From NCBI RefSeq assembly GCF_964204865.1, contig NC_135262.1, positions 15,066,001-15,130,000 on the forward strand: DNA of 64,000 bases, read 5' to 3'. Shown here piece after piece: positions 1 through 58,176 of the stretch. Position numbers and translations under genes: made by a program. How positions within the stretch are numbered: the stretch's first letter is position 1; each line of letters opens with the position of its first letter. Below the pieces are notes generated by a model, which was not told the DNA's origin, made no database searches, and worked only from the letters and a program-made list of their open reading frames with translations. Source of the stretch: Styela clava (taxonomy: Eukaryota).

Positions 1-124
1 GAAAGTTTATAGGTTTAACGTGCTGTTTAATGCTGTGCTTCATAAACAATAACAGCACAATTGCGATTGAGCAGACAATGTAAATGCTTGAGCATCTAAA
101 CAACAGTTTCTGGTTATATATCAT
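1..124 (-). CDS. 5' end of a third GT7/beta-1,4-galactosyltransferase-like paralog (runs off left edge)
   Basis: ATG at 124 opens MIYNQKLLFRCSSIYIVCSIAIVLLLFMKHSIKQHVKPINF, open to base 1. Bases 1-420 are near-identical to ~4095-4500 (N-terminus and upstream region of the adjacent paralog). Confidence 0.85.
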   Translation of the reverse strand, partial: MIYNQKLLFRCSSIYIVCSIAIVLLLFMKHSIKQHVKPINF

Positions 125-2051: not shown

Positions 2052-4217
2052 TCACCCCGATTTCCCGCGTTTAGCAGCACCATTACCTGACAAAGTAGTC
2101 TTTTTCCAGTTTTCAAGCATTAGTTCATTTTGGTGATGTTGAATCATATTCGTAACAGCAGAGTCCTCCAGTTGAGACCGGTATAATAAAGGAAATTTTT
2201 GAAACAATCTTTTAGTTAGTATTTCTGTGAATTCTGTACTCCCTACTCTGGAGACGCGCAAGTGCTCTTTTAGTAGTTTGATTTCCATATCCGGAGTTGC
2301 TCCTCTAATCTCAAACCACCACTTCCATTTCATATGTGGACTGCCAAATTGATCTTTTATAACGCTTTCGCAAACATAGCAGCCTGGATAGAGAAGCAGC
2401 TTCATTTTTGGTGTTTTGATTCGAAAACTTTTCCGCTTTTCTATTAACGTCTCTCTATTAAATTTAGATTTTTCTATCACGACTTCAGACTTATTTGATG
2501 CACTCAAGCTAAAGAATTCCACTGAACGTGAATGTGTAAACATCAAAGAATCATATATTCCAAGTGACGTGTTAAAAACTTCCTCCCTCTCTTTCAGGAT
2601 TGCATTGTGTGCTGTATACACCGAAACCGAGTAACTTAATTTGACGTCTTCAAAATTATACACAAGAAGTTCAACCTCAGCTTGGTGTTCGATCGATTTC
2701 AATGGAAATTCATTCTGTAATATCACGGGTGCTTCAAATATTTGTAAATAACGAATATCCCTTGAACAAATTTTAACGTAAACCGAAATGTCTTCATGTT
2801 TTTCAATAAATATCCTTTGGCGATGACGACCTAATTTATATTTTAGAATATTTTCATGTAGATTAGAGGAAGAGCGTAGAAAATACACACCAGAAGACGT
2901 TTCCACAATAGATCCGCAATACCGTTGTAAATTTGTGCATTTTGACTTGGCTTCTTCTAGATTGAGGTATTGGATGTCGTATGTACCACTAACTTTTTGA
3001 CCTAATGTCAAGTTGACAGTTTTCCCTTCAAAATGTTTGTACGTGCATTCATGGTTAGGATATTGGTCTCCGGCATCCAGACCATATCCTCGAATGCGAA
3101 AATTCTCTTTTTCGTTGTCTAATCTATCATTCGTTATAAATGGGTTTTCTACTATCACTTCATTAGAATTTCCAACGAATCTAACGGATGCTTTATTGAC
3201 CACAAATATTCTAATGTCAACATTTATCTTTGTGTACAGTTTATGTTTAGAAATATTCTTTACGACGTATTTCATGTTGTCCATACCACTAGGATCAGAT
3301 CGTGGGAATACTATTTTTACCCAATCAAATTGTTTTGTATTCTTTGCTTGCAAATGGCTTCCAATACCACTTTTGGGGTCAAATTGCCAAGGATGTTCAT
3401 GTGGTATCATTTTATAACGACCGAATTGTGGATCGTTAGATTCTGATTTTAACCCTTTCAGTTTAAACCTGAATTCGATATCACTGTCTTCGCCACCCCA
3501 ACCGTAAAATCTGTTACTATGGCCGTTTACTAGCCTGTATTGATTGACTTTAATCGATCCCACGCCACCAAATCCCGTTCCGTACGCTACTTTATAGTTG
3601 AATTTATCAATGGCGGGGCACAAGTGACGTGGTGCATTACCGCAGATGTACAGGTTTCGATCATCTTCGAGTAGCATATCGACATCATGGAATACAAGAC
3701 AGTCAAAATCGTATCTCGCTTCATGTAAAATTTCCAAAACTCCCGCGTTCATTATACGACCTTTGTTAAATGCTCCATCGTCGTATTGTTCGGATACAAA
3801 CACACAATATTTCAACGATTGTCTTTGCAAAATTGGATGCAAGTGATGCAGAAGCGTTATGAGATCCTGATGTCGATTTTTGTACGGCACTATTATAGCC
3901 ACCGTCTGATTGGAATAGCAATCTTTCGGTTCGTAACACCCATTTATAACGCGCTCACCCGCCTCTTTTATGGCTGCATCCTCCGTTGGTACAAAAGATG
4001 AATTGACTTCGAGTTTCCCTATCAATCCTTCCGAATATACTGGACAAATTTCATTACTAGTGCTATGTTGATCCGAGTACTTCGCATATTGATGGAAGTT
4101 TATAGGTTTAAAGTGCTGTTTACTGCTCTGTTGCATGAACAATAACAGCACAACTGCGATTGAGCAGACACTGTAAATGCTTGAGCATATAAACAACAGT
4201 TTCTGGTTATATATCAT
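2052..4217 (-). CDS. GT7 family beta-1,4-galactosyltransferase-like type II membrane protein with long C-terminal extension (intronless, 721 aa)
   Basis: N-terminal TM segment; VAIIVPYKNR, FNKGRIMN, FHDVD (DxD), FGGV, GWGGEDSD and MIPH motifs. First ATG is 4217 (the ORF track starts at an upstream TTG); ttttcag acceptor ~20 nt upstream. Confidence 0.93.
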   Translation of the reverse strand: MIYNQKLLFICSSIYSVCSIAVVLLLFMQQSSKQHFKPINFHQYAKYSDQHSTSNEICPVYSEGLIGKLEVNSSFVPTEDAAIKEAGERVINGCYEPKDCYSNQTVAIIVPYKNRHQDLITLLHHLHPILQRQSLKYCVFVSEQYDDGAFNKGRIMNAGVLEILHEARYDFDCLVFHDVDMLLEDDRNLYICGNAPRHLCPAIDKFNYKVAYGTGFGGVGSIKVNQYRLVNGHSNRFYGWGGEDSDIEFRFKLKGLKSESNDPQFGRYKMIPHEHPWQFDPKSGIGSHLQAKNTKQFDWVKIVFPRSDPSGMDNMKYVVKNISKHKLYTKINVDIRIFVVNKASVRFVGNSNEVIVENPFITNDRLDNEKENFRIRGYGLDAGDQYPNHECTYKHFEGKTVNLTLGQKVSGTYDIQYLNLEEAKSKCTNLQRYCGSIVETSSGVYFLRSSSNLHENILKYKLGRHRQRIFIEKHEDISVYVKICSRDIRYLQIFEAPVILQNEFPLKSIEHQAEVELLVYNFEDVKLSYSVSVYTAHNAILKEREEVFNTSLGIYDSLMFTHSRSVEFFSLSASNKSEVVIEKSKFNRETLIEKRKSFRIKTPKMKLLLYPGCYVCESVIKDQFGSPHMKWKWWFEIRGATPDMEIKLLKEHLRVSRVGSTEFTEILTKRLFQKFPLLYRSQLEDSAVTNMIQHHQNELMLENWKKTTLSGNGAAKRGKSG

Positions 4218-12346: not shown

Positions 12347-13685
12347 TATGGTGGCCCATCGTTGTCACGCGTAAAATTGAAAATAAAAATAAAAAATAAA
12401 ATAAAAAAACCGAAAATAAAAAAATTGTTGTAAAAAAACATAAAAATAATTAAAAAAAAAAATTTAAATTAAAAAAAAATAAATAAATAAAAATGAAATG
12501 AAAAACAAAAAAAAAATTAAAAAAATAAATTGAATAAAAAGAAAATAAAAAGGTTGACAACGATGGTCCGCCTCGTGGCCCATCGTTGTCACGCGCTTTT
12601 ATTTTTAGAAAATTTGCTTCTGCTTGGGACCAACGTTGTCAGGCTTAATCCTACGCGCACAAATGTGTTCCCTGGGTTTCAAACTCACTACTGATTTTCT
12701 TGAGCAATATTCAATATGAAAATGTTCTATAAATTCTCCATGCTACAAGTTCAACAAGAAGTAATATATTTATAATAATGATAAGAGAATATAGAATTGA
12801 ATACGAAAATTCGGAAAATTTGTTTTTACGTGTATAAGGTAATTTAATTGGAGAATGCTGCTTAACTACTCAGTTGTCTGGACACTCGCGATGCCGGTAC
12901 CGTCTTACCAAATACCGGTAGTCGGTTATAGTCGCTTTGCGTCTGACCGTACCGGTAGCCATACAATCACTCATGAAAGAATATGAGATACGGATAGTCT
13001 CGTAGAATATAGACTATTGAAACACCCTCTGCGCCTGCCCCATACCGTACAGCCGTAACGTACCGATCCAGACAAATGATAAATCGCCCGTGCTCAACCA
13101 TTTATTTCAATCCATACCTCGACTCACTATATTCTACTAGGATCGAGGTATGGATTGAAATAAATGGTTGAGCACGGGCGATTTGTCTGGATCGGTACGT
13201 TACGGCTGTACGGTATGGGGCAGGCGCAGAGAGTTGAGTAGTCTATATTCTACGAGACTATCCGTATCTCTCATTCTTTCACGAGTGATTGCATGGGTAC
13301 CGGTACGGTCAGACGGTACCGTACCGGCATCGCACGAGTGTCTGAGCAGTTAAGCAGCATTTTCCAAAAAAATTATCTTCTACACGTAAAAACAAATTTT
13401 CGTATCCAATTCTATATTCTCTTATCATTATTATAAATATATTGCTTGTGGTTGAACTTGTAGCATGGAGAATTTATAGAACATTTTCATGTTGAATTTA
13501 TTGGATATTGCTCATGAAAATCAGTAGTGAGTTAGAAACCCAGGAAACACATTTGTGCGTGTAGGATTAAGCCTAACAACGTTGGTCCCAAGCAGCATCA
13601 AATTTTCCAAAAATAAAAACGCGTGACAACGATGGGCCACGAGGCGGACCATCGTTGTCAACCTTTTTATTTTCTTTTTATCCAA

Positions 13686-13716
<31 letters not shown>

Positions 13717-13903
13717 TTAATTTTAATTTTTTTATTAAATTTTTTTTTTGTTTTATTTTTCAATTTTTTTTTTTAATTTCAATTTTTTTTTTTTTTTCAA
13801 TTATTTTTATGTTTTTTCACAACTATTTTTTTATTTTCGCTTTTTCATTTTTTTTTTCATTTTTTTTTTTAAATTTTACACGTGACAACGATGGGCCACC
13901 ATA
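12347..13903. mobile_element. 1557-bp fold-back (palindromic) non-autonomous transposon
   Basis: Termini tatggtggcccatcgttgtcacg / cgtgacaacgatgggccaccata; arms 12347-13122 and 13143-13903 with a 20-nt loop; exact 6-bp TSD gtgtag (12341-12346, 13904-13909). Confidence 0.9.
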
Positions 13904-14299: not shown

Positions 14300-17200
14300 C
14301 GCAGTAAGTGGGTAGCGTGCATCACAGTTAATAACCGGCATTATGTCTGGCGTTTCGAAAGTTTTGTATTAGATTTATGTAAAGCGTGCCATGTGAAAAC
14401 AGCTTACCTAGTCACATACACAATACGTTTTTATGGCCTGGGGCAAAAACGGCACAACCAGCAAATCAACCAGTTGCCTCGTATCAAAAGTTGAATTAGA
14501 TGGTACGAGAAAGTCTGGTATTTTGTAGCTTCATTGCATCAGAAAGGAAGTACGATAGTAAGGCATAGTAGTATGGCACAACACACAAGCAAGCCTAGTG
14601 GCGACGTGAAACTCACGGCAACAACGGGAGGTTTAGAAAGTTGATACAATTCAAAATTTGGCAGGTACAGGGCAGAGCAGCTACTCATGGGTGCAGCTGC
14701 ATATTTATTGCTGTAATACTATTAGTGATTAAAAAATAGTTTATCATTGAATTTGTTTCAAGGGCCTTATTAAAAATCATGCCATAATCCGTCTCTTGAA
14801 ACGCCCTTTACACACTCCAAATTGAGAACACTCAGTGCCTGATAGAAAGAATCTAGTCCGACTCTCGACTCGATAGTGGGAAAATTTTGTCTACGAAAAC
14901 ATTTTGCATTTCCAAGGCTTTTAGGTCCAGTTGAAAATTTCGACTACCTATTTTCAAGATTATGGAAATTTGAAAACCGAATTATTTTGAGTGATTTTAA
15001 TTTCCTGATACTTTTTCAGATTTTCATTGGTATTTGCCATGGTATATAAGCAGAAACTGTTGTTTAGTTGCTCAAGCATTTACATTGCCTGCTCAATCAC
15101 AGTTGTGCTGTTCTTGTTCATGCAGCTGAGCAGTAAACAGCACGTTGAAACTATATACTTTCAACAATATGCGAAGTACTCGGATCAACATAGCACTAGT
15201 AATGAAAATTGTCCAGAGTATTCGCAAAGATTGAAAGGGAAACTCAAAGTCAATTCATCTGTTGTACCAACGGAGGATGCAGCCATGAAAATGGCGGGTG
15301 AACGCGTTATAAATGGGTGTTACGAACCGAAAGATTGCCATTCCAATCAGACGGTGGCTATAATAGTGCCGTACAAAAATCGACACCAGCATCTCATAAC
15401 GCTTCTGCATCACTTGCATCCAATTTTGCAAAGACAATCGTTGAAATATTGTGTGTTTGTACCCGAACAATACGACGACGGAGCATTTAACAAAGGACGT
15501 ATCATGAACGCGGGAGTTTTGGAAATTCTACATGAGGCTAGATACGATTTCGACTGCCTTGTATTCCATGATGTCGATATGCTACTCGAAGATGATCGAA
15601 ACCTGCACATCTGTGGTGATGCACCACGTCACTTGTGCCCCGCTATTGATAAATTCAACTATAAAGTGAGGTACGGAACGGGATTTGGTGGCGTGGGATC
15701 GATCAGAGTCGACCAATACAAGCTAGTAAACGGCCATAGTAACAGATTTTACGGTTGGGGTGGCGAAGACAGTGATATCGAATGTAGGTTCAAATTGAAT
15801 GGGTTAAAAACAGAAGCTAACGATCCACAATTCGGTCGTTATAAAATGATACCACATGAACATCCTTGGCAATTTGAACCAAAAAGTGGTATTGGAAGTC
15901 ATTTTCAAGCACGGGATACAAAACTTTTTGATATGAATGAAATAATATTCCCAAAATCTGATCTTAGTGGTATAAATAACATGAAATACGTCGTGAATAA
16001 TATTTTTAGACACAAACTTTACACAAAGATAAATGTTGACATTAGGATATTTGTGGTCAATAAGGCATCCGTTAGATTCGTTGGAAATTCTAATGAAGTG
16101 ATAGTAGAAAACCCATTTATAACGAATGATAGACTAGACAAGGAAAAAGAGAATTCGCGCATTCAAGGATATGGTCTAGATGCCGGGGACCAATATCCTA
16201 ATCATGAATGCACGTACAAACATTTCGAAGGGAAAACTGTCAACTTGACATTAGGTCAAAAAGTTAGTGGTACATACGACATCCCATACCGCAATCTAGA
16301 AGAAGCCAAGTCAAAATGCACAAATTTACAACGGTACTGCGGATCTATTGTGGAAACGTCTCCTGGTGTGTATTTTCTACGTTCTTCCTCTTATCTTCAT
16401 GAAAATATTCTAAAATACAAATTTGGTCGTCATCGCCAAAGCATATTTACCGAAAGACATGAAGACATTTCGGTATACGTTAAAATTTGTTCAAGGGATA
16501 TCCGTTATTTACAAATATTTGAAGCACCTGTGATATTACAGGATGAATTTCCATTGAAAGCGATCGAACACCAAGCTGAAGTTGAACTTCTTGTGTATAA
16601 CTTTGAAGACGTCAAGTTAAGTTACTCGGTTTCTGTGTATCCAGCACACAATGCAATCCTGAAAGAGAGGGAGGCAGTTTTTAACACGTCACTCGGAATA
16701 TATGATTCCTTGATATTCACATATTCAAGTTCAGTGGAATTCTTTAGCATGAGTTCATCGAATAAGTTTGAAGCCGTGATAGGAAAATCTAAACTTAATA
16801 TGGAGACGTTAGTAGAAAAACGGAAAAGTTTTCGAATCAAAACACCAAAAATGAAGCTGCTTCTTAATCCAGGCTGCTATGTTTGCGAAAGCGTTATAAA
16901 AGATCAATTTGGCAGTCCACATATGAAATGGAAGTGGTGGTTCGAGATTAGAGGAGCAACTCCGGATATGGAAATCAAACTACTAGAAAATAACTTGCGC
17001 GTTGCCAAAGTAAGGAGTACAAAATTTACAGAAAAACTAACAGAAAGATTGTTTCAAAAATATCCTTCAATAAAACACCTTCAAATAGGGGACACTGCTA
17101 TTACAAATTTAATTCAACGTGACCAAAATGTTCTGATGCAGGGAATCTTCTGAAAACTACTATATCACGTATTGGCGCTGCTAAACGCAGGAAATCGGGG

Positions 17201-22364: not shown

Positions 22365-23675
22365 TTATTCAGGTTCCTCCATTATAATTTCTTTGCTTTC
22401 CCTGGACATGAGTTGTTGTCTTATTTCTGGTGTGATCTTAGGATGGATTTGATACCTCAGCAACTCTCTCAAGCTATCTGCTTGTTCATCAGAGACATCA
22501 TTTCTATAGGTCTCGACAAAGGATAAAAGACATTGATGCCATAACACTGGCAACTCCCTTTTGTCGTTACGAAACTGAGAGAAGTGGAACACAAGAGCAT
22601 CAATGACTCGAAATGGTAGTGCATACTTTTTAGTAATCAAAGCTCGGAGAAAAATGCTGTTACCACCACTATAATGCATTTCTGCTATTTTGATCATTGC
22701 TGCACTAGCATGAAGAACAGGTATCGTGCATTTTGTGATGACGCTCGAGATTATTGTAGCTTCTCTCAAAGTACATGTACCTTCTTCACATAGTGGCAAA
22801 ATGATTCCTTTAAAAAAGGCTGCCGGTTTGTAAAGCGCCTTTTTTAATGCCATAAAAAGGTGAAAGTTCAATCTTTTGTAGTAATGAATATCATCCCTTA
22901 TACGTGGCAGTAAAACCAAATTAAAAAATCTTTGAGCCATGTGAACGTTAAGATTTGAAGCAAATATTCTTGTTGCTTGATACAACGCAGCTGCACTCCA
23001 AGTATCCGGCTCCGTGATATACAAAATCTCTTCCCAATTTTTAAGATGTGGTAAAACTTTGAATGCTTTCGGCAGCTTCCCACTTCTGTATCTAATTAAA
23101 ATGCTTTTGACATCTTTGTAAACTTCAATGATTCTAGGATCAATATCCGGCATGGGATTTTCAACATCAGGCATTAGTGTAGAGACATCGGTTTTCTTTT
23201 CTGTAATTTTCTCCATGATTATATCAGCTAAAGTTCTTCTTGTTGGTGGATCAGGATTCATAAAAGCCTGTAATGCTTTTTCATCTTCTTGATTTATAAC
23301 TATGTCTTGATCTTGATATTCCCCTGAAGCGGCAAGAGCAGCACTTTCTGCTAAACTTGGCCACTCATCTTCATCCTCATTTTCTGAATCGGAATTACTT
23401 TTCTTTCCTAGTTTTATTACAGTTTTAAATTTTGAAGCTCCGATCCCAACTTCTCCTTCCAGTTCTTTTTGTTGTTTTACTGCTGCATCAAGAATTTTTT
23501 TTGTTAATCGATTATCGACAAAATCATCTTCTTCTTGTCTGAATCGAACCTTCGGTTGCCGATTTGATGCCGCCTTAGTAACATTGTCTGCTGTGATATC
23601 CTCAACCAGACCAACTGATTGCTTCACAGCCAGAGGCTCTGCACGCTTCGCTTTGACTTTTTTACTTTTTCCCAT
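22365..23675 (-). CDS. BYSL: Bystin (Enp1 homolog), intronless, 436 aa
   Basis: YRSGKLPKAFKVLP, LYQATRIFASN, AQRFFNLVLLPRIRDDI, KKALYKPAAFFKG and LPVLWHQ motifs. ATG of MGKSKK at 23675; tttag acceptor at 23707-23708; AATAAA at 22341-22336. Confidence 0.96.
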   Translation of the reverse strand: MGKSKKVKAKRAEPLAVKQSVGLVEDITADNVTKAASNRQPKVRFRQEEDDFVDNRLTKKILDAAVKQQKELEGEVGIGASKFKTVIKLGKKSNSDSENEDEDEWPSLAESAALAASGEYQDQDIVINQEDEKALQAFMNPDPPTRRTLADIIMEKITEKKTDVSTLMPDVENPMPDIDPRIIEVYKDVKSILIRYRSGKLPKAFKVLPHLKNWEEILYITEPDTWSAAALYQATRIFASNLNVHMAQRFFNLVLLPRIRDDIHYYKRLNFHLFMALKKALYKPAAFFKGIILPLCEEGTCTLREATIISSVITKCTIPVLHASAAMIKIAEMHYSGGNSIFLRALITKKYALPFRVIDALVFHFSQFRNDKRELPVLWHQCLLSFVETYRNDVSDEQADSLRELLRYQIHPKITPEIRQQLMSRESKEIIMEEPE

Positions 23676-23905
23676 TTTTATCTTGATTATGGTAATATTT
23701 GAAAATCTAAAATTAAAATAAAAAAGGTGGAAGCATGAAATCACACAGAAAAATATAAATTATAATGTTAAATATATATTTACAGCACCTGAAGTTAAAA
23801 AACAGTAACTGTATAAAACTTGCCACATGGCTTAAAGAACATATGTTGCAAAAGCATTAGAACAATAAATTACCACATGCAAATACTCAATTATGAACCC
23901 AGGTT

Positions 23906-27216: not shown

Positions 27217-28041
27217 TCATCTATTTTTTAACAATGCAGTTCTTGCATTGACAAGAAGTTTGAATGCATCTTCACTTCCAGGAGCTACATTTTTATCAGG
27301 ATGAAGCAAAACAGCAAGCTTACGATAAGCTTTATTAATATCATCTCTTGTCGCAGAATGATGTACTCCAAGTTTTTCATAATTATCACGTCCATTTTTT
27401 ATCCTCAATATAGCATCGGCTTGTTCTTTCGTAAAACCAAGATTGGTGTTTACAGGACCACGCTTTCCTCCATTTTCAGATAGTTCTACTAATGCATTAA
27501 ACATGGCCTGGAACATTTCATTTACACCTTCCCCCGTACCGGCTGATGTTTCAAAATAATGAAAACCTTTTCCATCTGCCCATAATCTTCCTTCTGTTGT
27601 ATCAACCACTCTGTTACCTTTATCAGTTTTGTTAGCGCAAACAAAAAATATCACATTGTCCATTTTTTGAGGTTTTCCAATTTCTTGCCGCATTTCTTGT
27701 AACCATGATTCAAGGCATTCGAAACTGACACGGTTTGTTACATCATAAACAAGAATTGCAGCTTGTGTGTCTTTGTAAAACTCATTTCGTACTTCGTAAA
27801 AGTAGGGATGTCCTGCCATATCGAAAATATTTACTTTCAGTTCTTTATCATTTACTTGTACTTTTGTGACACCATAATCAATCCCAATAGTCGCCAGATA
27901 TTTATTTACAAATCTCTTTTCACAGTATCGCTTGATTAAACAGCTTTTACCAACTTCGGCATTGCCCATGCTAATTACTTTTACTCTTATACTTCGAGGA
28001 TGACCTTTTTTACGGGTCAGTGGATTGGTGTTGGAAGACAT
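27217..28041 (-). CDS. DNAJC27: DnaJ homolog subfamily C member 27 (RBJ; Rab-like GTPase + J domain), intronless
   Basis: GNAEVGKS P-loop, DMAGH, NKTD and ETSA motifs followed by a J domain with HPD; 274 aa. Confidence 0.96.
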   Translation of the reverse strand: MSSNTNPLTRKKGHPRSIRVKVISMGNAEVGKSCLIKRYCEKRFVNKYLATIGIDYGVTKVQVNDKELKVNIFDMAGHPYFYEVRNEFYKDTQAAILVYDVTNRVSFECLESWLQEMRQEIGKPQKMDNVIFFVCANKTDKGNRVVDTTEGRLWADGKGFHYFETSAGTGEGVNEMFQAMFNALVELSENGGKRGPVNTNLGFTKEQADAILRIKNGRDNYEKLGVHHSATRDDINKAYRKLAVLLHPDKNVAPGSEDAFKLLVNARTALLKNR

Positions 28042-28345
28042 AACTAGAATGTTGTTAACGTAAACCTAAACAATAAATGACATTGAATTAAATGTAGACT
28101 AACAAACTGGATACCAGATAAAAAATGCTTGGAAAAAACAAAAGCTAAGCAATTAATTACAAATTTTTACTCCGCGTAGTTCAAAACATTATGAAAACCA
28201 TAACAAACAAATAAAAAGAAACAAATTTATGACCTCAGAACTGATGAATTTATTGATGTTTAACCACATAAAAGTTTAAATACCTTGTAGTGAATTAAAC
28301 AATTTTAATAGGTGATTGAAAAAAGACAAAATACCAGTATGTATT

Positions 28346-28996
28346 CTATTCAACAACTTCAATTGCTTTTCTAACTTTTCTTTGCTCAGATAAAGGAATA
28401 GCAGGATTTCCAAAATATGAAATTTCCAATATTCTGTTGAAAAAGTCTTTTATTTGTGCCCATGTGGAATCAAGGTCTTTTGGAAACTCTTCAAAATTTA
28501 TATCATAGTCTGTTGTATGGTATCTCAGCACCCACCATCGTCGATATAAACCAATATCCACTATTCGATTATGAAATTCCCTCCATTTTGGACGTAAAAA
28601 TTTACATTGCGATTCATAATGCTTATTAGTTACGTCATAATCAGTATAATAAATTAGAGAGAAAATCACTAAATTTTGATGGCGAATTCGTCCCTTTGCA
28701 AAATATCCAGAAACTTTTTGAATGTGTTCATCTGATTCTTTGTTTCGAGTTTTATCATTCAATAATACAATTTCATTAGACTTGTCTACAAGCTTTGCAT
28801 AAAACTCGGTTTCGGTCGGCATTGTCCGATTGAGTCGGATTCCAAATAGCAATAATCCTGTATACATTGTTGTTTTACCTGGGTTTTCCTTCATATATTG
28901 CAAAGACTCTAGAGCTGAAGTTCTATAATCGACAATAGCAGTCTTGAGTGATGTTTTCAACCTTTCACCAATACCACGAACCTTCAATGCTGCCAT
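28346..28996 (-). CDS. TIMM29: Mitochondrial import inner membrane translocase subunit Tim29, intronless
   Basis: DY...ENPGK, RN..SD.HIQ, NLVIFSLIY, QCKFLRP.W, RIVDIG..RRWWVL and DYDIN.EEF motifs typical of Tim29; first ATG at 28996. Confidence 0.88.
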   Translation of the reverse strand: MAALKVRGIGERLKTSLKTAIVDYRTSALESLQYMKENPGKTTMYTGLLLFGIRLNRTMPTETEFYAKLVDKSNEIVLLNDKTRNKESDEHIQKVSGYFAKGRIRHQNLVIFSLIYYTDYDVTNKHYESQCKFLRPKWREFHNRIVDIGLYRRWWVLRYHTTDYDINFEEFPKDLDSTWAQIKDFFNRILEISYFGNPAIPLSEQRKVRKAIEVVE

Positions 28997-29324
28997 CACA
29001 ATTATCAGATTGTAATAATCGATAAAGTACTGAACTAGGCAAACAATAGATTCATAGGTATTCTACTTCACAGGATTATTTAAAACTTTTTCGATTTCTC
29101 ATAAATATAAAAAATTGATATTAGCATTAGAAAGAGATGACAAAACTCAAAATATTCAAAATGCAGGGGTCTAGCGAAGCAATCGCTGTAACTCCTTAAA
29201 ATAACGTCAAACAAAATGAAGTTTCCATGTTTTTTTTTCAAGTCAGTTAAATGAAATTCTTGACAGATGTGTTTAGTTAAATCAAACCGACTCATGTTCC
29301 AACTAAGCAGGTCATGTCAAACCG

Positions 29325-30708: not shown

Positions 30709-32860
30709 CTACATGGGTGGTGGCTCCTCTACGTCCCATCTCATTGGGCCATATGGGCCGTGGCCCATCAAGCTATGGGCCGCGGCCCTATCAGAAAAAA
30801 TTCAATTATCTTACCAAAATTCTCAATTTTCACAAAATTGTCAATATTCGAACCAAAAAAAAACGCGGTATGCCGCCAAATTTTTTTTTTACGATAAGCC
30901 TTTATAGAGGACTTGCACGGGTCACGTGACTTTGTTACTGGACGGCAATAAAACAAAAACGTCCATTTGGCTCCTGTCAGTTGCAAGTCGGATTATACGT
31001 TTCCGTTTTGTTTGGCTGTTGAAAATTGTTATTTCGTATTGTTCCGTTGGCCTTACGTATAGTATAGACAACGAAATGGATCTTCAGGTATATTCCACTG
31101 ATTTCAAAAGATCCGGAACGTCGCGCAATGTGGATATCATCTATTGCATTGGCAGAACTGCTTGGTGTAAAGTCCAGAAGCCTTCTTACATGTGTTTCAC
31201 TGTTTGCGGACAGCACTTCGTTGATGGTGAGTGATAATGTGGTGATAGTGTGCCGTTATCAATTTCTTCAAATATTCACGAGCTCCCTCATTTCAATGGA
31301 AAGCAGATGACAAACTACTGTTATTAGTAGGCCTACTTGCAGTTGCAGACTTGACTTGTGTAAGACAGTAAGGAATTAATAATCAATTGCTATAAGGTAT
31401 TGTTTCCCTAATTAGCAGGTAATCTATTACTAAGTGTGAAAGGTTGAATAGATAACTAAAGTTTAACACCAGTGGTCACGCAAAAAATAACCAGAATTCA
31501 ATTGAATTCGCCATCTAGGAATACGCTCGCCACCACATCTCTGATCACCCTGGGTTTCAATCCCAGAGAGGATTGCAGCTCTACTCCCACCGAGGGTGGT
31601 TCTCATAACCGCTGATCGGTTACGACCATTCCCCACCATGCAAGTCCATGCTTCTGAAAACAAATAACTGGACACCTTCTGACCAATAATGAAGATTTCT
31701 TTCAATTTAAAACGCAATTATGCCTACCAATGTGGGTAGTTTTCAGGATAGAATTTATCTGTGGTTGGGGGACAGATTGCAAGGTGCAACATCGTACGAT
31801 TACCATTCTATGTCGGGATTAGTTAGCCAGTTATTTGTTTTAGAAGCATATACTTGATGGTGGGGGATGTCGTAATCGACCAGCGGTCGTGGGAACCATC
31901 CTCAGTGGAAGGAGAGCTGCAATCCCTCGCACATAACTATCCCCGCATGGGATTGGAACCTGTGAAACTCCCAGGGAGATCAGAGATGCGGTGGCGAGCG
32001 TATTCTTAGATAGAGAATTCAATTGAATTTTGGTTATTTTTTGCATTAGCACTGGCGTTAAACTTTAGTTATCTATTCAACTTTTCACACTTACTGATAG
32101 ATTACCTGCTAACTAGGAAAACAATACCTTATGGCAATTATTGATTAATACCTTACACGAGTCAAGTCTGCAAGTAGGCCTACGCCTAGGCCTACCAATA
32201 ACAGTAGTTTGTCATCTGCTTTCCATTAAAATGAGAGAGCTTATGAATATTTGAAAATTTGATAACGGCACATGATGACTCACCATCAACGAAGTGCTGT
32301 CCGCAAACAGTGAAACACAAGTGAGATGGCTTCTGGACTTGACACCAAGCAGTCCTGCCAATAGATGATATCCACATTGCGCGGCGTTCCGGATCTTTTG
32401 AAAACAATGGAATATAACTGAAGATCCATTTCGTTGTCTATACTATACGTACAGTCAACGGAACAATACGAAATAACCATTTTTAACAGTCAAACAAAAC
32501 AGAAACGTATAATCCGACTTGCAACTGACAGGAGCCAAATGGACGTTTTTGTTTTATTGCCGTCCAGTAACAAAGTCACGTGACCCGTGCAAGTCCTCTA
32601 TATAAAAATAAAGCAAAATACCAAGATACAGAAAAGAATACTCCTGTAGTATGTGTACCAGGTTAGGGTTAGGACAAAATTTAGTTCAGATTTTTCACAT
32701 TATAGTTCTATTATTAGTTCGGGGACTGTCTGTGTTAGCCAGGTGAATAGTCCCGTTACACAACTCGATGGGCCGCGGCCCATAGCCTGATGGGCCGAGG
32801 CCCAATTCGATAGGCCGTGATCCCGGCCCATGGGCCGTAGATGAGTCACCACTTCCACTC
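30709..32860. mobile_element. DNA element with GGGCC/GGCCC-rich subterminal repeats inserted in a SINE
   Basis: 8-bp direct repeat ggtacgcg at 30701-30708 and 32861-32868; imperfect TIR gtggtggctcctctacg/cgtagatgagtcaccac; SINE halves at ~30567-30708 and ~32861-33010. Confidence 0.65.
30903..32602. mobile_element. Palindromic derivative of a THAP-domain DNA transposon (1.7 kb)
   Basis: Arms ~30903-31670 and ~31826-32602 starting tatagaggacttgcacgggtcacgtgac. Each arm has a frameshifted THAP ORF (MVISYCSVDC...KDPERRAMW...VCGQHFVDG) and a SINE copy. Confidence 0.85.
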
Positions 32861-33347: not shown

Positions 33348-33874
33348 TTATTTGGAAAGAAAAACAATAAATACGTCAAAGCAACAAAGGAGTTTGCAGT
33401 TTTGCTCCCCTGAAATTTGGGTATTTTGTTCTAATCTGCTGTATATATGCCTAATGTTTTTTCAATGGTTGTTGAGTAATTGCAAACTACAAACCTGAAT
33501 AAACTGAGCCGAGTTTGTCATTAGGCAAGGTAGGCTGAAGCCCAGGTGCCTCAGGACATCGACAGCCCTCGACATTCTATTTTTTCTTTAAAATTTTATA
33601 AAACTGATATTTGTTTAAATTTTCAATCAGGGTAATATTTATTGTCCCGAATATCTATCGCGGCCTCTATTTATTTTTTGAGTGCGATGACGCCATCAAA
33701 GTTAAAATTCGTCTACCTTGTGGCGTGATATCTGGTCACGATGTATATCTGGTCATGTTGTCCATCAGCTTTGTTTAAAATAATGGATATTGTTGAATAT
33801 TTGATACCGCAATGAGATTGATACATACTGAAATGGATGAGAGATACACAATCGTCAATAAGGAATGACTCCAA
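33348..33874. repeat. Left arm of ~530-bp inverted duplication (partner 36607-37171)
   Basis: High-identity reverse complement, e.g. tcgtcaataaggaatgactccaa vs ttggagtcatttcttattgacga. Confidence 0.88.
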
Positions 33875-34111
33875 TCAACGGCGTATCTAGGGTGTGGCAG
33901 CCATGGCTCGTGCCATGGGCGCCGTTTGAACAGGGGCGCAAAACAGGGAAAAGTATTTTCCATAAAAGGTTATAAGGATTTCAATTTCAACCGACCTAGA
34001 AGTACAAGATCATCGTGGTAAATAATACATATATTCATTCCAACTGCTTTCATTACAGTAGTGATGTAAATTGTATAATTTAATATTCATTTGGATTTCA
34101 ATCACATTTGT

Positions 34112-34513
34112 AAACAAGAGAGCTATGCTCAAATATATGGACACGTTACGCTGTTTGAAATTGATAAAAGTAATAGCCTTCTAGAAAAAAATTCAAGCTT
34201 TACCTACTGAAAATTCCAAAGCAATTGGCCCAGTAATCAAAGAGAAAAGCGATTTTTTTAAAACGTGTCAAAGAACAAGGATAAGAACAAGTGAGCTATG
34301 CTCGAATATGTGGACACGTAGCGCCACAAAATTCTGATGACGTCATAGCAAAAAATAAAAGTGATAGCTTTCTGGAGAAAAATTCCATCTTTAACCACTG
34401 AAAATTTCAAAGCAATTTGTCCAGTAATCAAAGGGAAAAGCGATTTCTTCAAAACGATACAAAGAACAAGAACACACAACAACAAAACGATCGTTATATC
34501 AACTACGTGTCCA
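34112..34513 (-). mobile_element. Helentron-type MITE with internal tandem duplication
   Basis: Two ~175-bp units starting acaag(a/t)gagctatgctc; subterminal IR ggacacgt/acgtgtcc; terminal hairpin gagc-tat-gctc. Confidence 0.6.
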
Positions 34514-35052
34514 ACAGGAACAACAACATAATATTGAAACAATCGTTATGTACACTGACGAGTCCATAAAACATTTGCGAACCTTACAAGATAAGTAAAT
34601 AATTTTCACGATTGCACTGTCCGTTTTGGGTTTGTATTAACTTGCTGCTGAATATTCAATAAGTAGGATTCGTGGTGGAGACCGACTATCAACCTAGGAC
34701 GAGCACTCTTGTTTCAAATATCTCAGTTATGTATCGAAAAGTATGAGATAGATTCTCTTTCGCCTACCGAAAGTATGACATATCTGAATCAACGGTGCGA
34801 GCACGTACCAACACTTTGTGTATATAATCAAGTTATTCATGATCAAATCCCGAGTGCACACTTCTTTTATTTCAATTACCTGAGGGTTAGGGTTGATGAC
34901 GCTATCACCTACCTTAGGCAGTTATTGAATCCCATCTGCCGTTCGGAGTGTTGGGTGTGAAATTTAAACGAAAGCTTTGGCGCAGAGGCATTGGATGTAC
35001 ATCTATTTCGATATGTGAGTTTGTGCCTGTAATTTTTTTCCATGCTGCGGAT

Positions 35053-35878
35053 TAGAGATGTATCGATGTATCGGTATCGGCCATTTTTTCGGTATCGGCC
35101 ATGTATCGGTATCGGTTGGATCAGGGCCGATATTTCCGATATATTTCCTTTTTTGATATGGTCCAGAATGTTTTAAAAGATAAGTTGAAATACTACTTTT
35201 TAATTTATTTTTTGTCCAGAGAGATCGTGAGCTATGAGCCATAGGCTACATGTCCCCACCCCCGCGAAGGAATAGGATTCACCTGTTTTTAGCTATTTAT
35301 CAGCCAAACTAGCTCAACTATTTTGGCTGTTTTCGCTGTCAAATTTTTATATTGACATTTTTAATATTACATAATATTTATGAAGAAATATATCAACACA
35401 GCACATAACAAAAAGCAACTAGGCGCCCAGTTTTAAATCATATACAGTGGAATTGGAGTCCTTGTTAACGCCACATGCACTTTGGGCACGGCTATAAATT
35501 CTGACTGTTAGTCGTCAAGTACGAGTGTCATTTAGTCCGTCGACATCGATAAACCAAATTCCGACACAATTATCCCTCTACGCAGGTATTAATTTTAGTT
35601 TTGTTTAACTACACAATTTCTTTATAGATATATTGACATGACCGCCTAGAGCCCTAGACTGTCTCAAAATATATGATAGCAATTGTAAAATATATATTAT
35701 AAAACAGTAAAGTAAAAAAACTTCCTCGACAGTTATAGGTAGGCACTTTTTTGACGGTGCTGATTGATATTCTTTCATGTTGGCTTTGATTTATTGCGGC
35801 GACAATTATGATCAACCACAAAATAAAATATTTGTGAAATGCTTTTAATTTGAACGTAGGGCGGCGGCGTTAGAATGT
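35053..35878. mobile_element. Truncated copy of the hAT element, duplicated together with its flank
   Basis: Shares left flank and TSD half (ctgcggat) with the 37877 copy; ~34900-35878 is a direct repeat of ~37631-38670. Confidence 0.85.
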
Positions 35879-35899
35879 TGCTTCACTGTTCAAATATTC

Positions 35900-36430
35900 C
35901 ATTTTCTTTCTCATGTGTGGGGTGAGCCTGTGGATATAATTAGATAACCATTTAGCACTATACCGTCCTGCTACATGCAATGTCACTGATTGCACATCCG
36001 ACATTATTGGCAACAAAGACATCAAAATCGAAATATTTTGCTATAAAATTTGTACTCACATCAGTTTTATCCACAGTAATTCTGGCCTTATCTTTGTGTG
36101 GGCAATCTCTAACCCAGTGAATACCTGAGAACCACAGATAACACATCTCGTAATTGTGCCATCTCTTCTTCTGGGGTTTGTGCCTCTTTCTCCGCTTCTT
36201 TTCCTCGGACCATTGCTTGGTGTTATTTTCTTTGATGTACTGCTTAGTTCTGCAACACAGTTTGGCTCGGTCTTCACAGTAATCACAGTATTAACTTTAT
36301 TGAATGGGCTTCGAAATATTCTTCGTAAATAAAGCTTTAACGATGTCATATTCAAGTTCACTAGTTGCAGTCAATATGAGCTGACGTTCTTGTTAAGAAA
36401 GAGCAGCGTCTTCAAGTAGTTTGAAGCAAA
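35900..36430 (-). pseudogene. Copia/GalEa-like gag-protease fragment
   Basis: FKLLEDAALS*QERQLIL; TNPRRRDGTITRCVICGS/HWVRDCPH (frameshifted CCHC knuckle); AISDIACSRTV (protease-like). Confidence 0.72.
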
Positions 36431-36606
36431 CTGGTTTTTTGTTTGTTACAAGAGTGCTTGTGCATATCAACAATAATAAACATTAATTCTTGTTGTGGCT
36501 GAAGCTTGTCATCTAGTCTTTCAGTAAAAGATTCTCGAAAATCTCAGAAACCGTAAAAATTTCGTCTAACAAAGTTCAGATTAAACTGATATAGAGCTGT
36601 CTTCTG

Positions 36607-37171
36607 TTGGAGTCATTTCTTATTGACGATTGTGTATCTCTCATCCATTTCAGTATGTATCAATCTCATTGCGGTATCAAATATTCAACAATATCCATTA
36701 TTCCAAACAAAGCTGATGGACAACATGACCAGATATGCATCGTGACCAGATATCACGCCACAAGGTAGACGAATTTTAACTTTGATGGCGTCATCGCACT
36801 CAAAAAATAAATTGAGGCCGCGATAGATATTCGGGACAATAAATATCACCCTGATTGAAAATTTAAACAAATATCAGTTTTATAAAATTTTAAACAATTT
36901 AATATATAACAATTTAGTAAAAGAAAAAATAGAATGTCGAGGGCTGTCGATGTCCTGAGGCACCTGCGCTTCAGCCTATCTTGCCTAATAACAAACTCGG
37001 CTCAGTTTATTCATGTTAGTAGTTTGCAATTACTCAACAAACATTGAAAAAACATTATGCATATATACAGCAGATTAGAACAAAATACCCAAATTTCAGG
37101 GAAGCAAAACTGCAAAACTTCGTGCAACTCCTTTGTTGCTTTGACGTATTTATTGTTTTTCTTTTAAAATA
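36607..37171. repeat. Right arm of inverted duplication (partner 33348-33874)
   Basis: Reverse complement of 33348-33874 with two small extra segments. Confidence 0.88.
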
Positions 37172-37176
37172 ACATA

Positions 37177-37431
37177 CTGTGTTTCCCAAAAAATAAGACT
37201 GGGTCCTATTTCAATTTTCTTCCGCAAAATACCACGTTATATAATACCACGTTACACCTGTAAATAACACGTTTTTATTCAAAATAAATGCTAAACATAG
37301 CTTATCAATCATTTAGAGCGTGTAGGAGAGACATTTTGCTATCAACTAGGGGAGTGCTTTTAGTGAAATGATTTTTAAAATTCAGGCTAGGTTTTATTCT
37401 CGGGGTAGGTCTAATTTTCGGGGAAACACGG
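37177..37431. mobile_element. Tc1/mariner (pogo-like) MITE
   Basis: TIR ctgtgtttcccaaaaaataagac / gtctaattttcggggaaacacgg flanked by TA. Confidence 0.75.
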
Positions 37432-37876
37432 TATATAGTTCGAATCTTTGTTATTATTTTCTGTTAGACTATTTTAAGGGTGCCGCTGCTCGATAACCTA
37501 TATTGGTTTTTCGCGGTTCCCTTCGCCCTGAAACGCATTTTTCATATTTAGTGTAATTTTTTGTATATCCAGTGTGTTTTCAGTATGATGAAAAAATAAA
37601 TTAATGATCACTGATTATCAACACATTGAACGCTATCACCTACCTTAGGCAGTTATTGAACAATTTTGCAAGTACCCTTTTCACGCCATAATGTGAAAGT
37701 GTGTTCGTCTTCAGGGCGTGTTGCTCGCCAGTGGAATAATCCCATCTGCCGTTCGGAGTGTTGGGTGTGGAATTTAAACGAAAGCTTTGGCGCAGAAGCA
37801 TTTTGAGTTAGCCATTAGATGTACATCTATTTCGATATGTGAGTTTGTGCCTGTGATTTTTTTCCATGCTGCGGAT

Positions 37877-39078
37877 TAGAGATGTACCGATGTATCTTTT
37901 TTCGGTATCGGCCATGTATCGGTATCGGTTGGATCAAGGCCGATATTTCCGATATATTTACTTTTTTGATATGGTCCAGAATGTTTTAAAAGATAAGTTG
38001 AAATACTACTTTTTAATTTATTTTTTGTCCAGAGAGATCGTGAGCTATGAGCCATACATGTCCCCACCCCCGCGAAGGAATAGGATTCACCTGTTTTTAG
38101 CTATTTATCAGCCAAACTATTACATTTACATTTACCAAACATTACATACAAACAAATTACATAATAATTATGAAGAAATATATCAACACAGCACATAACA
38201 AAAAGCAACTAGGCGCCCAGTTTTAAATCATATACAGTGGAATTGGAGTTCTTGTTAACGCCACATGCACTTTGGGCACGGCTATAAATTCTGACTGTTA
38301 GTCGTCAAGTACGAGTGTCATTCAGTCCGTCGACATCGATAAACTAAATTCCGACACAATTATCCCTCTACGCAGGTATTAATTTTAGTTTTGTTTAACT
38401 ACACAATTTCTTTATAGATATATTGACATGACCGCCTAGAGCCCTAGACTGTCTCAAAATATATATATGATAGCAATTGTAAAATATATATTATAAAACA
38501 GTAAAGTAAAAAAACTTCCTCGACATTTATAGGTAGGCCCTTTTTTGTCGGTGCTGATTGATATTCTTTCATGTTGGCTTTGATTTATTGCGGCGACGAT
38601 TATGATCAACCACAAAATAAAATATTTGTAAAATGCTTTTAATTTGAACGTAGGACGGCGGCGTTAGAATGTGTGGGCGATATTCGATATTCTTTTAAAC
38701 ACGAATACCGATATTCGAAGGTTGCGATATTAACATTAACTTCGAATTGGACATCCCGGCTTATGAGTTTTCTAATTGAACACCGAGATTACTAGCGTCA
38801 CTGTCCAATGCAGCTTAATCAGCATCTGGATACCAAACATCAATTTCATATTATGTGATATATATATCTCTTTTTTCGATCTGAAATAATGTGTACTATG
38901 AACAACGCTCAAAGACCATTGTTTTCATCCTTCTGCCCTACACAGCACACCCAATTAAGTAATAATTACATAGTATCGGTATCGGAATATCGGTAATATC
39001 GGCATTTTTGTAGTATCGGCATCGGCGTTTTTAGCTAGTATCGGTATCGGCGACAAAAGTGGTATCGGTACATCTCTA
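37877..39078. mobile_element. Non-autonomous hAT element, full copy
   Basis: Same family as 20113-21264; exact 8-bp TSD ctgcggat. Confidence 0.92.
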
Positions 39079-56913: not shown

Positions 56914-58176
56914 TTACGTTCCCAAAACTGATTTACTTAAGTTATCTAAAGTTTGATAAAAGCTATATTTCCAATCAAAATCCATATCATACCAAAAATT
57001 GACTGCTATGGTGCCATTAGTTTGTGTAACATGGTGGAACCACATAGCAGGTAAATATAGAAGATCGCCAGCTTTCACACTAGCTGTCAAGGTTTTGCAG
57101 TTTTTATACATAGGATAAGTTTCAAGGTCTGGATTAAGAGGGTCTATGGCAATCCAAGGTACTGGTTGAGAATCCAACAAGTCTTTTATAGTCCACGTTT
57201 CCCCAACTTTCTGATATTTTGCAGGCTTATAATTTTTATGAGGAATGAATGGTCTATCACATGGCGGGTGTAGCGTGAATGTCTTTTCACCTGAAATTAC
57301 TGCGTATAAATTTTCATAATGATCTTTGTGCATTGAAGTTATGGCATCTTTCTGTCCCATCCAAAAATTCACTGCTTCTGGTTTTGCCCCAAATGCATCA
57401 GTTGCCCAATTTATGTGGGATTCAATATCGCCGATAATCTCAGGGAAATCAGATGTCATGTTGGAATTCTGTTTTTGAATGTAAAATACATCACTCTCGT
57501 CTTCCCCTTCTTCAATACTATCTAAAAAGTCACAGAATTTCATTTCCATTTCTTCTGGCATAACAAATCTATCGCCATTTACCGCATCAGCATACCCGTT
57601 TGGTGTCACAGCCACAGTAACCATCTTTTCAGACATCGTTTCCCTAAAACAATTTAATATGATGAGCTATATCAGACAGACTTATATAGAGGGCTTTTTA
57701 CGCAAATTGTTTGAAAGTAACTGGCCAATCTCACTTACGTGTGATCAAAGTGACTGTTATAAACACTTTGCGTATGATAAAGTAAGCTATTCAACAATTG
57801 GAGCGTGCTTTATGCGATGAATGTGCACTAAATGAGGACCCAATAACGGTTGTTTGGCTACCTCCATAAATTAGATTAACAAGTAAAATTTTGTGAATTT
57901 AATATTATTATTTAAATTAAATTTGCAGTTATTGCCAAAGAGCTACCTACAAATAATCGCTCACTTTACTCACCTAAAATACGCCGGTGACCACTTACTC
58001 AAGGCAGTCCAGTGGCATATGCCACCTTTCAATATAAATGGGGAATTTTTGGAGACATAATTTGAAAAAAATTCTGCTGCTGTTGGTGGATCCTTGATGA
58101 TTGGTACATAATCATGTACATTCAAGTCATGTGCTTCCGAGATAGATTCAATCAAACATTTCTCTACTATATTCAT
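56914..58176 (-). CDS. JMJD7: JmjC domain-containing protein 7, 2 exons, 310 aa
   Basis: Exons 58176-57974 and 57643-56914 (AG|gtgag ... tttag|G, phase 2). Motifs VAVTPNGYADAV, YIQKQNSN, AVNFW, HKDHYENLY, LYLP..WFHHV, AVNFWYDM. Confidence 0.95.

What the first reader, a model, noticed from the sequence alone, without database searches (positions are those of the whole stretch)
16050..17153. ~380-aa C-terminal extension fused to the GT7 catalytic domain, with a PAN/apple-like Cys module
Canonical B4GALTs end at the K-I-x-V-D-I strand (here YTKINVDI). These proteins continue for ~365-385 aa, well conserved between paralogs. The extension includes C-TYKHFEG...NLEEAKSKCTNLQRYCGSIVE...YFLR...C, reminiscent of PAN/apple folds, then a beta-rich segment ending PGCYVCESVIKD...WKWWFEI (possibly Ig-like). 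Inference: an acceptor-recruiting lectin or adaptor domain, i.e. an uncharacterised GT7 architecture. The partner region is 2052-3210.
Basis: partly seen in the sequence, partly recalled or inferred. Interest (0 to 1): 0.7.

Follow-up and report, generated by a model that had tools for sequence, protein, structure and literature searches.

The report
Sea-squirt glycosyltransferase with RhoGDI-like/PAN appendage
Sea squirts have their own branch of a common sugar-transferring enzyme family that carries an extra 370-residue tail, predicted to fold as a lipid-carrier-like (RhoGDI-type) barrel with a PAN module inserted in it, which likely helps the enzyme pick an unusual target and likely a sugar other than galactose.

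Summary
Window 15039-17153 is one 704-aa frame: N-terminal anchor, GT7 catalytic domain (58-334), then 370 aa with no Pfam family. The tail is under purifying selection between tandem copies (dN/dS 0.29). It occurs in five Styela clava loci, in Clavelina and in Ciona savignyi, i.e. all three ascidian orders, and extension-bearing enzymes form one clade (95/96). A paralog with introns is spliced from catalytic exons into tail exons in single contigs from two studies. AlphaFold (pLDDT 76.6) gives a split Ig sandwich most like RhoGDI (Z 10.1, 130 of 138 residues) with a PAN-fold module (plasminogen N-domain, Z 6.4) inserted after strand 2, then a long helix. Metal and base residues are intact, but B4GALT1's specificity residues are changed in 7 of 7 members (Lys228, non-Tyr289, non-Asp319, new loop). 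Best reading: an active Golgi-type transferase whose tail selects a non-standard acceptor, perhaps a lipid-linked one, probably with a non-galactose donor. Function is untested. I found no description in ten paper searches. New variant of a known family.

The parts
15039..17153 (+). Complete coding sequence, copy 1, 704 aa, no intron in the coding region
   Evidence: the exact protein is in the NCBI-derived collection
15057..15128 (+). N-terminal signal-anchor helix (about residues 7-30); type II membrane topology inferred
   Evidence: only hydrophobic stretch: 19-residue hydropathy 2.13 at residues 7-8, at most 0.91 after residue 60
15210..16040 (+). GT7 catalytic domain (58-334): D178-V-D180, W240-G-G-E-D244, M270, H273 intact; K152, G215, S245 at bovine R228, Y289, D319; family loop H-x-H-P-W-x-F-x-P
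16041..16109 (+). First two strands of the RhoGDI-like Ig sandwich (335-357)
   Evidence: model strands E4-13, E19-23; RhoGDI alignment starts at model residue 1
16110..16208 (+). Variable low-confidence linker (358-390)
   Evidence: pLDDT 47-67 over model residues 21-50; length varies in homologues
16209..16490 (+). PAN-fold module (391-484) inserted in the sandwich; C427, C434, C484 in 8 of 8 aligned members
   Evidence: PAN leads also
16518..16958 (+). Rest of the RhoGDI-like Ig sandwich (494-640), ending in the P-G-x-Y...D...W-x-W hairpin
16959..17150 (+). Long C-terminal helix (642-674) and poorly conserved tail
   Evidence: dN/dS 1.15 for codons 641-700
14333..14605 (+). Upstream block conserved with copy 2 (86%), where an NCBI model of copy 2 places a short 5' exon; a splice-acceptor-like site lies just before the ATG
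2052..4217 (-). Copy 2, 721 aa, same architecture, 91.6% nucleotide identity
1..124 (-). 5' end of copy 3, which continues left of the window; 7-nt deletion near codon 560 in this assembly, intact 721-aa form in another record

Best explanation
This gene encodes an ascidian GT7 glycosyltransferase with its metal and catalytic-base residues intact, fused to a conserved tail that is predicted to fold as a RhoGDI-type Ig sandwich with an inserted PAN module, and the tail likely acts as an acceptor-selecting arm for a substrate other than the terminal GlcNAc used by B4GALT1. Shown: the fusion, its splicing in a paralog, purifying selection, one clade across three ascidian orders, and the residue changes. 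Predicted: the two folds and their nested order. Inferred steps: (1) the protein sits in the secretory pathway as a type II membrane protein with all domains lumenal; (2) it binds Mn2+ and a UDP-sugar and transfers with inversion; (3) the donor is likely not plain UDP-Gal: Lys at 228 favours a gluco-configured sugar and Gly at 289 leaves room for an N-acetyl group, so UDP-GlcNAc or UDP-Glc is my first guess for this copy; (4) the GlcNAc-binding loop is replaced by an aromatic family loop, and the lost acceptor recognition is supplied by the sandwich, which directly follows the last catalytic strand and may hold a hydrophobic tail as RhoGDI, PDE-delta and NPC2 do, while the PAN module may read a glycan or protein surface. 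The window's three copies are a recent local triplication of a gene that lost its coding introns.
For: Fusion and selection. Distribution: 15 hits at E<=0.001 among 1.84 billion representatives, 9 at <=1e-10; the named ones are Styela, Clavelina and Ciona savignyi. In the own genome the tail profile hits 5 loci (8 matches of 11 candidates), each also a GT7 locus. Clade: 8 of 21 rows, support 95/96. Splicing: 12 GT-AG junctions in one 3,168-nt contig of run X1 and the same 12 in X5 (another study), none in X6; one junction joins the last catalytic exon to the first tail exon. Folds: pLDDT 76.6, pTM 0.75; RhoGDI Foldseek E 3.6e-6, NPC2 6e-4; RhoGDI Z 10.1, PDE-delta 8.3; RhoGDI2 the only chain of 48,161 at Z>=8. 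Residues: K189, K228, non-Tyr289, non-Asp319 in 7 of 7 members with those columns filled; D252, D254, W314, E317, D318, D320, M344, H347 kept in all 7. R228K shifts bovine B4GALT1 from Gal to Glc and Y289L admits GalNAc (PMC7185993, PMC4202792 passages); R359/F360/I363 form the N-acetyl pocket (PMC7565966). A paralog has two alternative PAN-coding exons, as expected of a swappable specificity module.
Against: No activity, binding or localisation data. The full-length model failed on the catalytic domain (mean pLDDT 56, residues 181-336 under 50), so the tail's position relative to the active site is unknown. I had no coordinates, so whether the sandwich has an open pocket is untested; a shared fold shows no function, and many carbohydrate-enzyme Ig domains score Z 6-7. 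K228 is not diagnostic: 5 of 12 other Styela GT7 loci have it, and 2 of 12 lack D319. Position 289 varies (G, G, D, K, I, R, E), so the family may not share one donor. Sequence likeness to RhoGDI is confined to the last hairpin; the rest is weak (81 of 2,000 shuffles as good) and PDB-wide E is 0.34. Expression of copy 1 is only indirect.
Confidence: 0.5

Rival explanations
1. The tail is a lectin or processivity arm: the PAN module (and the Ig face) grips a growing glycan chain, for example a tunic polysaccharide, and the sandwich is only a scaffold with no lipid pocket.
For: PAN domains are suggested to mediate carbohydrate-protein or protein-protein contacts (PMC9249922 passage). The PAN part is the best-conserved part of the tail against most homologues (33-47% versus 12-29% for the second Ig part; 18-30% in the C13 paralog). 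Wzt's carbohydrate-binding Ig domain also matches (E 5e-4; Z 5.9). Alternative PAN exons in a paralog.
Against: No conserved surface aromatic cluster was identified (no coordinates). RhoGDI and PDE-delta outrank sugar-binding sandwiches. The tunic galactans of Styela plicata and Herdmania are alpha-L-linked (PMC3366676), not the beta-D product of known B4GALTs (own knowledge).
Confidence: 0.25
2. The tail is a protein-interaction or assembly module (dimerisation through the long helix, docking to a partner enzyme, or Golgi retention) and does not touch the acceptor; it could act like a built-in alpha-lactalbumin that shapes the flexible loop.
For: A long conserved-length helix follows the sandwich. 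The loop that binds alpha-lactalbumin in B4GALT1 (PMC7565966) is replaced in this clade. PAN is suggested to aid receptor dimerisation.
Against: The last 60 codons evolve neutrally between copies 1 and 2. It does not explain the alternative PAN exons.
Confidence: 0.2
3. The window copies are degenerating processed pseudogenes, or the tail is a non-functional read-through.
For: No coding introns, where paralogs have 13 (C1) and at least 10 (C13); copy 3 carries a 7-nt deletion here; stem and extreme tail are unconstrained.
Against: dN/dS 0.20-0.42 in both domains for all three pairs; copy 3 is intact in XP_039255578.1; runs shown to be spliced RNA hold 0.67-0.80 of copy 1's sampled words while the other two copies share only 0.20 of its 31-mers; the tail is conserved across three orders.
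Confidence: 0.05

Closest known systems
Beta-1,4-galactosyltransferase 1 (B4GALT1, CAZy GT7; PDB 1yro, 1nf5, 1o0r, 6fwt)
   Same: Type II anchor and GT-A catalytic domain (phmmer E 5.6e-53, residues 54-335); DxD, W-G-G-E-D, Met/His metal ligands, F280 and Y286 kept. The top hit is the R228K mutant 1yro.
   Different: 370 extra residues after the strand at which B4GALT1 ends; R189K, R228K, Y289G, D319S; the R359/F360/I363 loop is replaced.
RhoGDI immunoglobulin domain (PF02115), with PDE-delta and NPC2
   Same: Whole-domain structural match of the model (Z 10.1, rmsd 2.9, 130 of 138 residues); final hairpin alike in sequence (hhalign probability 88.5%; Pfam E 0.061 for P0014).
   Different: Predicted lumenal, not cytosolic; a catalytic domain stands where RhoGDI has its N-terminal arm; about 135 residues (linker plus PAN) are inserted after strand 2; 14% identity; pocket untested.
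PAN/apple domain (plasminogen N-domain, HGF, factor XI)
   Same: Fold match Z 6.4, rmsd 2.5, 70 residues; Atlas feature and structure leads name PAN (scores 0.80-0.85, under the 0.9 bar).
   Different: No Pfam PAN hit; by my recalled mapping the usual helix-to-strand disulfide pair is replaced by Ala423 and an aromatic residue; inserted in an Ig domain of an enzyme.
Glycosyltransferases with C-terminal accessory domains: GALNTs (ricin lectin), POMGNT2 (fibronectin III) - recalled, not from a call
   Same: Catalytic domain followed by a module thought to select acceptors.
   Different: Other GT families and other folds; I recall no GT7 with a C-terminal PAN or RhoGDI-like domain (B4GALNT3/4 carry PA14 before the catalytic domain; recalled).

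Membership tests
GT7 glycosyltransferases | Pfam Glyco_transf_7N and 7C above curated cut-off | tested here: met
   151 bits (cut-off 27) and 72.6 bits (cut-off 23)
GT7 glycosyltransferases | DxD, glycine-rich loop, xED base, C-terminal His | tested here: met
   D178/D180, W240-G-G-E243-D244, M270, H273; landmarks as in PMC7948508 passages
GT7 glycosyltransferases | Single N-terminal membrane anchor | tested here: met
   hydropathy scan
GT7 glycosyltransferases | Inverting transfer from a UDP-sugar | not testable with these tools
   needs an assay
B4GALT1-type UDP-Gal:GlcNAc galactosyltransferase | Arg228 and Tyr289 for galactose selection | tested here: not met
   Lys152 and Gly215
B4GALT1-type UDP-Gal:GlcNAc galactosyltransferase | Asp319 and the Arg359/Phe360/Ile363 N-acetyl pocket | tested here: not met
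   Ser245; loop replaced and longer
B4GALT1-type UDP-Gal:GlcNAc galactosyltransferase | Chain ends at the K-I-x-V-D-I strand | tested here: not met
   370 more residues
PAN/apple domain | PAN fold | tested here: met
   predicted model residues 58-150 vs 4a5t 5-79, Z 6.4, rmsd 2.5; middling Z, module not folded alone
PAN/apple domain | Match to Pfam PAN profiles | tested here: inconclusive
   no PAN family listed; HMMER filters drop weak hits; Atlas leads under 0.9
PAN/apple domain | 4-6 conserved core cysteines | tested here: inconclusive
   C427, C434, C484 in 8 of 8; a Cys near 391 is present in all but not in one column; pairing not measured; the pattern differs from the one I recall for HGF and plasminogen
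PAN/apple domain | Binds carbohydrate or protein | not testable with these tools
   needs arrays or pull-down
RhoGDI | RhoGDI-type Ig sandwich | tested here: met
   Z 10.1; best of 48,161 chains; predicted model
RhoGDI | Pfam Rho_GDI above cut-off | tested here: not met
   no hit for P0001; 13.4 bits vs 26.5 for P0014; the genome's true RhoGDI lies on C19
RhoGDI | N-terminal GTPase-binding arm and cytosolic location (recalled features) | tested here: not met
   the match begins at RhoGDI residue 67; the GT7 domain precedes it; lumenal by inferred topology
RhoGDI | Open prenyl-binding pocket | not testable with these tools

The most novel reading that the evidence does not exclude
An early ascidian fused a copy of the cytosolic RhoGDI prenyl-binding domain to a Golgi GT7 enzyme, turning it into a lumenal lipid holder, and inserted a PAN module in it. 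The result is a self-contained glycolipid (or other lipid-linked acceptor) transferase that uses a gluco-configured donor and whose target can be switched by mutually exclusive splicing of the PAN exon.
Probability: 0.2. Interest if true: 0.8.

Novelty: new variant of a known kind. Interest (0 to 1): 0.6.

Why it matters
GT7 enzymes of the B4GALT type are textbook single-domain enzymes whose specificity is changed by a separate protein (alpha-lactalbumin). A lineage that has built an accessory module onto the C-terminus and rewired the donor and acceptor residues gives a natural experiment on how this scaffold gains new specificity, and natural versions of the engineered R228K/Y289X mutants. 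If the sandwich descends from RhoGDI, it is a case of a cytosolic lipid-binding domain reused in the secretory pathway. Ascidian glycan biosynthesis is poorly known (sulfated galactan pathways 'virtually unknown', PMC3366676 passage; the S. clava genome paper reports beta4GalT1 missing, PMC7540406 section 3.2.3), and this clade is a concrete, expressible candidate set, with a Ciona member open to knock-out.

Tried and rejected
Pfam on the tail: only sub-threshold hits (zf-C3HC4_5, DUF4505), rejected as chance. Word-index protein searches found only Styela records and P0009; they missed relatives that the HMMER-wide search found, so they say nothing on range. Atlas: no usable hit for P0003; for Clavelina 545-705 only generic V-set Ig rows at TM under 0.5. 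P0018 (E 5.5e-4, archaeal-type surface repeat protein) rejected as a chance hit; P0015 kept only as a lead. Metagenome scan: 2 of 40 stretches were GT7 catalytic pieces with no tail match reported. A PAN-only profile search of PDB failed because full-length rows pulled in the catalytic domain; an Ig-part profile gave 0 hits at E<=10. Full-length AlphaFold did not fold the catalytic domain. Intron-position test of RhoGDI descent was impossible: Styela RhoGDI has no coding introns. Tandem double PAN in the C13 paralog rejected: including both exons breaks the frame. Tunic L-galactan synthase considered and not adopted: linkage and donor do not fit known GT7 chemistry and nothing here points to it. 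Three papers were not held; a search for RhoGDI pocket residues returned 0. Earlier findings: 0 in three look-ups.

Full report
Observation. The window holds one uninterrupted frame at 15039-17153 (+) of 704 aa and an inverted paralog at 2052-4217 (-) of 721 aa. Pfam places the GT7 domains at 58-192 and 197-274 and finds nothing above cut-off after that. Bovine B4GALT1 aligns to residues 54-335 and ends there, so 370 residues are extra. Database hits name the organism as Styela clava and call the proteins 'uncharacterized'. A third copy straddles the left edge of the window; it has a 7-nt deletion near codon 560 in this assembly but is intact in another record, 97.7% identical. The three copies are 91.6-93.5% identical in DNA.

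The tail is real protein. Between copies 1 and 2, dN/dS is 0.29 over codons 335-650 and 0.42 over the catalytic domain; the stem and the last 60 codons are near or above 1 (counts are small, 27 and 29 differences). A HMMER search of 1.84 billion cluster representatives with the tail alone gave 15 hits at E<=0.001 and 9 at <=1e-10. Three hits besides Styela's own are full-length proteins with the same order of GT7N, GT7C and tail (P0006, P0007, P0009); three more begin within the end of the catalytic domain or are gene fragments. Named relatives are Clavelina lepadiformis and Ciona savignyi, which with Styela cover Aplousobranchia, Phlebobranchia and Stolidobranchia. The other hits are unnamed, so 'ascidian-specific' rests on three named species and on the absence of other named hits. 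Two weak hits (P0015, P0018) are not GT7 proteins.

Paralogs and splicing. A tail profile hits five loci in the genome: the three copies, C1:7.78 Mb and C13:7.79 Mb (8 matches of 11 candidates); all five also match the catalytic domain (about 25 GT7 loci by my count). The C1 gene has introns. Laying four runs on it showed 12 junctions with GT-AG ends in one 3,168-nt contig of X1 and in X5 (two studies), 3 in X12, and none in X6, which holds the stretch in one piece. The junction 2686-3032 of L009 joins the last catalytic exon to the first tail exon, so this architecture is made as one spliced transcript in that paralog. The exon model translates without stops, 812 aa (the last junction is my own call, not from reads). 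For the window copy the evidence is indirect: five runs guessed as RNA hold 0.67-0.80 of its sampled words, more than either domain alone could supply, while copies 2 and 3 together share 0.20 of its 31-mers, and X1 shows no intron cover on C1.

Origin. On the catalytic domain, the 8 tail-bearing rows form one side of a branch against 13 others (95/96). The 13 are 12 of the roughly 20 other Styela GT7 loci and one metagenome contig, stitched from BLAST pieces anchored on copy 1; no vertebrate rows were available, so the root and the sister group are open. The window copies lack all 13 coding introns of C1. P0010, the relative closest in the tail (45%), reads through an insert at the place of a C1 intron, so the sub-branch likely had introns and lost them by reverse transcription before the local triplication. 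This is not special here: several neighbouring housekeeping genes and RhoGDI also lie in single long frames.

Structure. AlphaFold2 on a 20-row alignment gave mean pLDDT 76.6 and pTM 0.75 for the tail. Foldseek's best PDB match is RhoGDI (E 3.6e-6), with Wzt-C and NPC2 further down. Structural alignment gives RhoGDI Z 10.1, rmsd 2.9, 130 of 138 residues, spanning model residues 1-306, then PDE-delta at 8.3; in a search of 48,161 representatives RhoGDI2 is the only chain at Z>=8. The same search matches model residues 58-150 to residues 5-79 of 4a5t at Z 6.4, rmsd 2.5; 4A5T is full-length plasminogen (PMC4312030 passages), whose N-terminal domain is the PAN domain (own knowledge; PMC9249922 names plasminogen as a PAN family). 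So the order is: two Ig strands (335-357), linker, PAN (391-484), the rest of the sandwich (494-640), long helix. With the insert removed, a family profile scores Styela's own RhoGDI at 16.1 bits against a maximum of 7.0 among 2,000 shuffles, but the signal lies in the last hairpin; without it 81 of 2,000 shuffles do as well, and RhoGDI was chosen after the fact. Descent from RhoGDI is plausible, perhaps even odds, not shown. The full-length model reproduced the tail but not the catalytic domain, so domain packing is unknown.

Active site. Mapping on bovine B4GALT1, all 7 family members with these columns filled keep D252, D254, F280, Y286, W314, E317, D318, D320, M344 and H347, and all 7 have Lys at 189 and 228, a non-Tyr at 289 (Gly in the window copies) and Ser, Thr or Asn at 319. 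The loop that carries R359/F360/I363, the N-acetyl pocket and alpha-lactalbumin site (PMC7565966 passage), is replaced by a family motif H-x-H-P-W-x-F-x-P. In the bovine enzyme R228K shifts the donor from Gal to Glc and Y289L admits GalNAc (PMC7185993 and PMC4202792 passages). Against reading too much into this: 5 of 12 other Styela GT7 loci also have Lys228, 2 of 12 lack Asp319, and position 289 differs in nearly every member.

How it most likely works. An active type II secretory-pathway transferase (about 0.85) whose donor is likely not plain UDP-Gal (about 0.6) and whose acceptor is likely not a standard terminal GlcNAc (about 0.7). The tail starts on the residue after the last catalytic strand, arose in the same clade as the remodelled acceptor loop, and in the C13 paralog its PAN module is coded by two alternative exons, either of which keeps the frame while both together break it (not checked with reads). 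I therefore favour an acceptor-selecting role (0.5), with the sandwich holding a hydrophobic tail as my specific guess (about 0.25 on its own). Rivals: pure lectin or processivity arm (0.25), assembly or regulatory module (0.2), decaying retrocopy (0.05).

Literature. Ten full-text searches, of which 28, 61, 92 and 93 asked about ascidian GT7 enzymes or glycosyltransferase-PAN fusions, showed no description of this architecture in the listings. I saw passages of PMC3034685, PMC7948508, PMC7565966, PMC4202792, PMC7185993, PMC9249922, PMC4312030 and PMC3366676, and passages plus section 3.2.3 of PMC7540406; I read no supplements, and that paper's Figure S5 (GT domain survey) may bear on the claim. 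Subscription journals are mostly not held. Comparisons with GALNT, POMGNT2, B4GALNT3/4 and the PAN cysteine numbering are recalled.

Verdict. Observation confirmed; interpretation supported and extended. It is a GT7 member, not a B4GALT1-type galactosyltransferase by residue test, not a RhoGDI, and carries a non-canonical PAN module. New variant of a known kind; interest 0.6.

Noticed in passing
L014:8202-7673 and L014:7458-6845 (G000:C13, minus strand): The C13 paralog has two tandem exons, each coding a whole PAN module (phase 1 in, phase 0 out). Either alone keeps the frame; both together break it. They look like mutually exclusive exons; not checked with reads.
   Followed up: partly
window 1-124 and L012:8032-10000: Copy 3 has a 7-nt deletion near codon 560 in this assembly (568-aa model) but is intact (721 aa) in XP_039255578.1: an allele or assembly difference.
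   Followed up: yes
window 12347-13903: A 1.6-kb imperfect inverted repeat (about 81% self-match) between copies 2 and 1, like a foldback or MITE-type element.
   Followed up: no
window 22365-23759, 27217-28065, 28346-29062, 56914-57666, 59418-62204, 62748-63998: Housekeeping genes in single long frames: bystin, Ras-plus-DnaJ protein, Tim29, cupin/JmjC protein (Pfam), and a WD-repeat protein and an FtsH-type protease (named from recall). Intron-free genes seem common here.
   Followed up: partly
L045 (G000:C19:12687432-12687992): The genome's RhoGDI gene, 192 aa, also without coding introns.
   Followed up: yes
P0015 (unnamed JGI protein, 537 aa): A secreted-looking protein with several repeats that match the PAN module (E 1.3e-5, 4 stretches) and no Pfam PAN hit: this cysteine variant may be a mobile module missed by Pfam.
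   Followed up: no
G000 C3:24.13-24.21 Mb, C3:17.35-17.39 Mb, C6:13.21 Mb, C16:6.54-6.58 Mb: A separate tandem expansion of GT7 genes without a tail match; about 25 GT7 loci in the genome by my count, though the genome paper reports beta4GalT1 as missing.
   Followed up: partly
L012:about 8690-9121 bases left of copy 3's region (window-relative -11310 to -10879, minus strand): A frame with a signal-peptide-like start followed by Gly-X-Y repeats, a collagen-like gene.
   Followed up: no
window 30903-32602 and 33348-39078: Further inverted and dispersed repeats of 0.5-1 kb at 85-91% identity.
   Followed up: no
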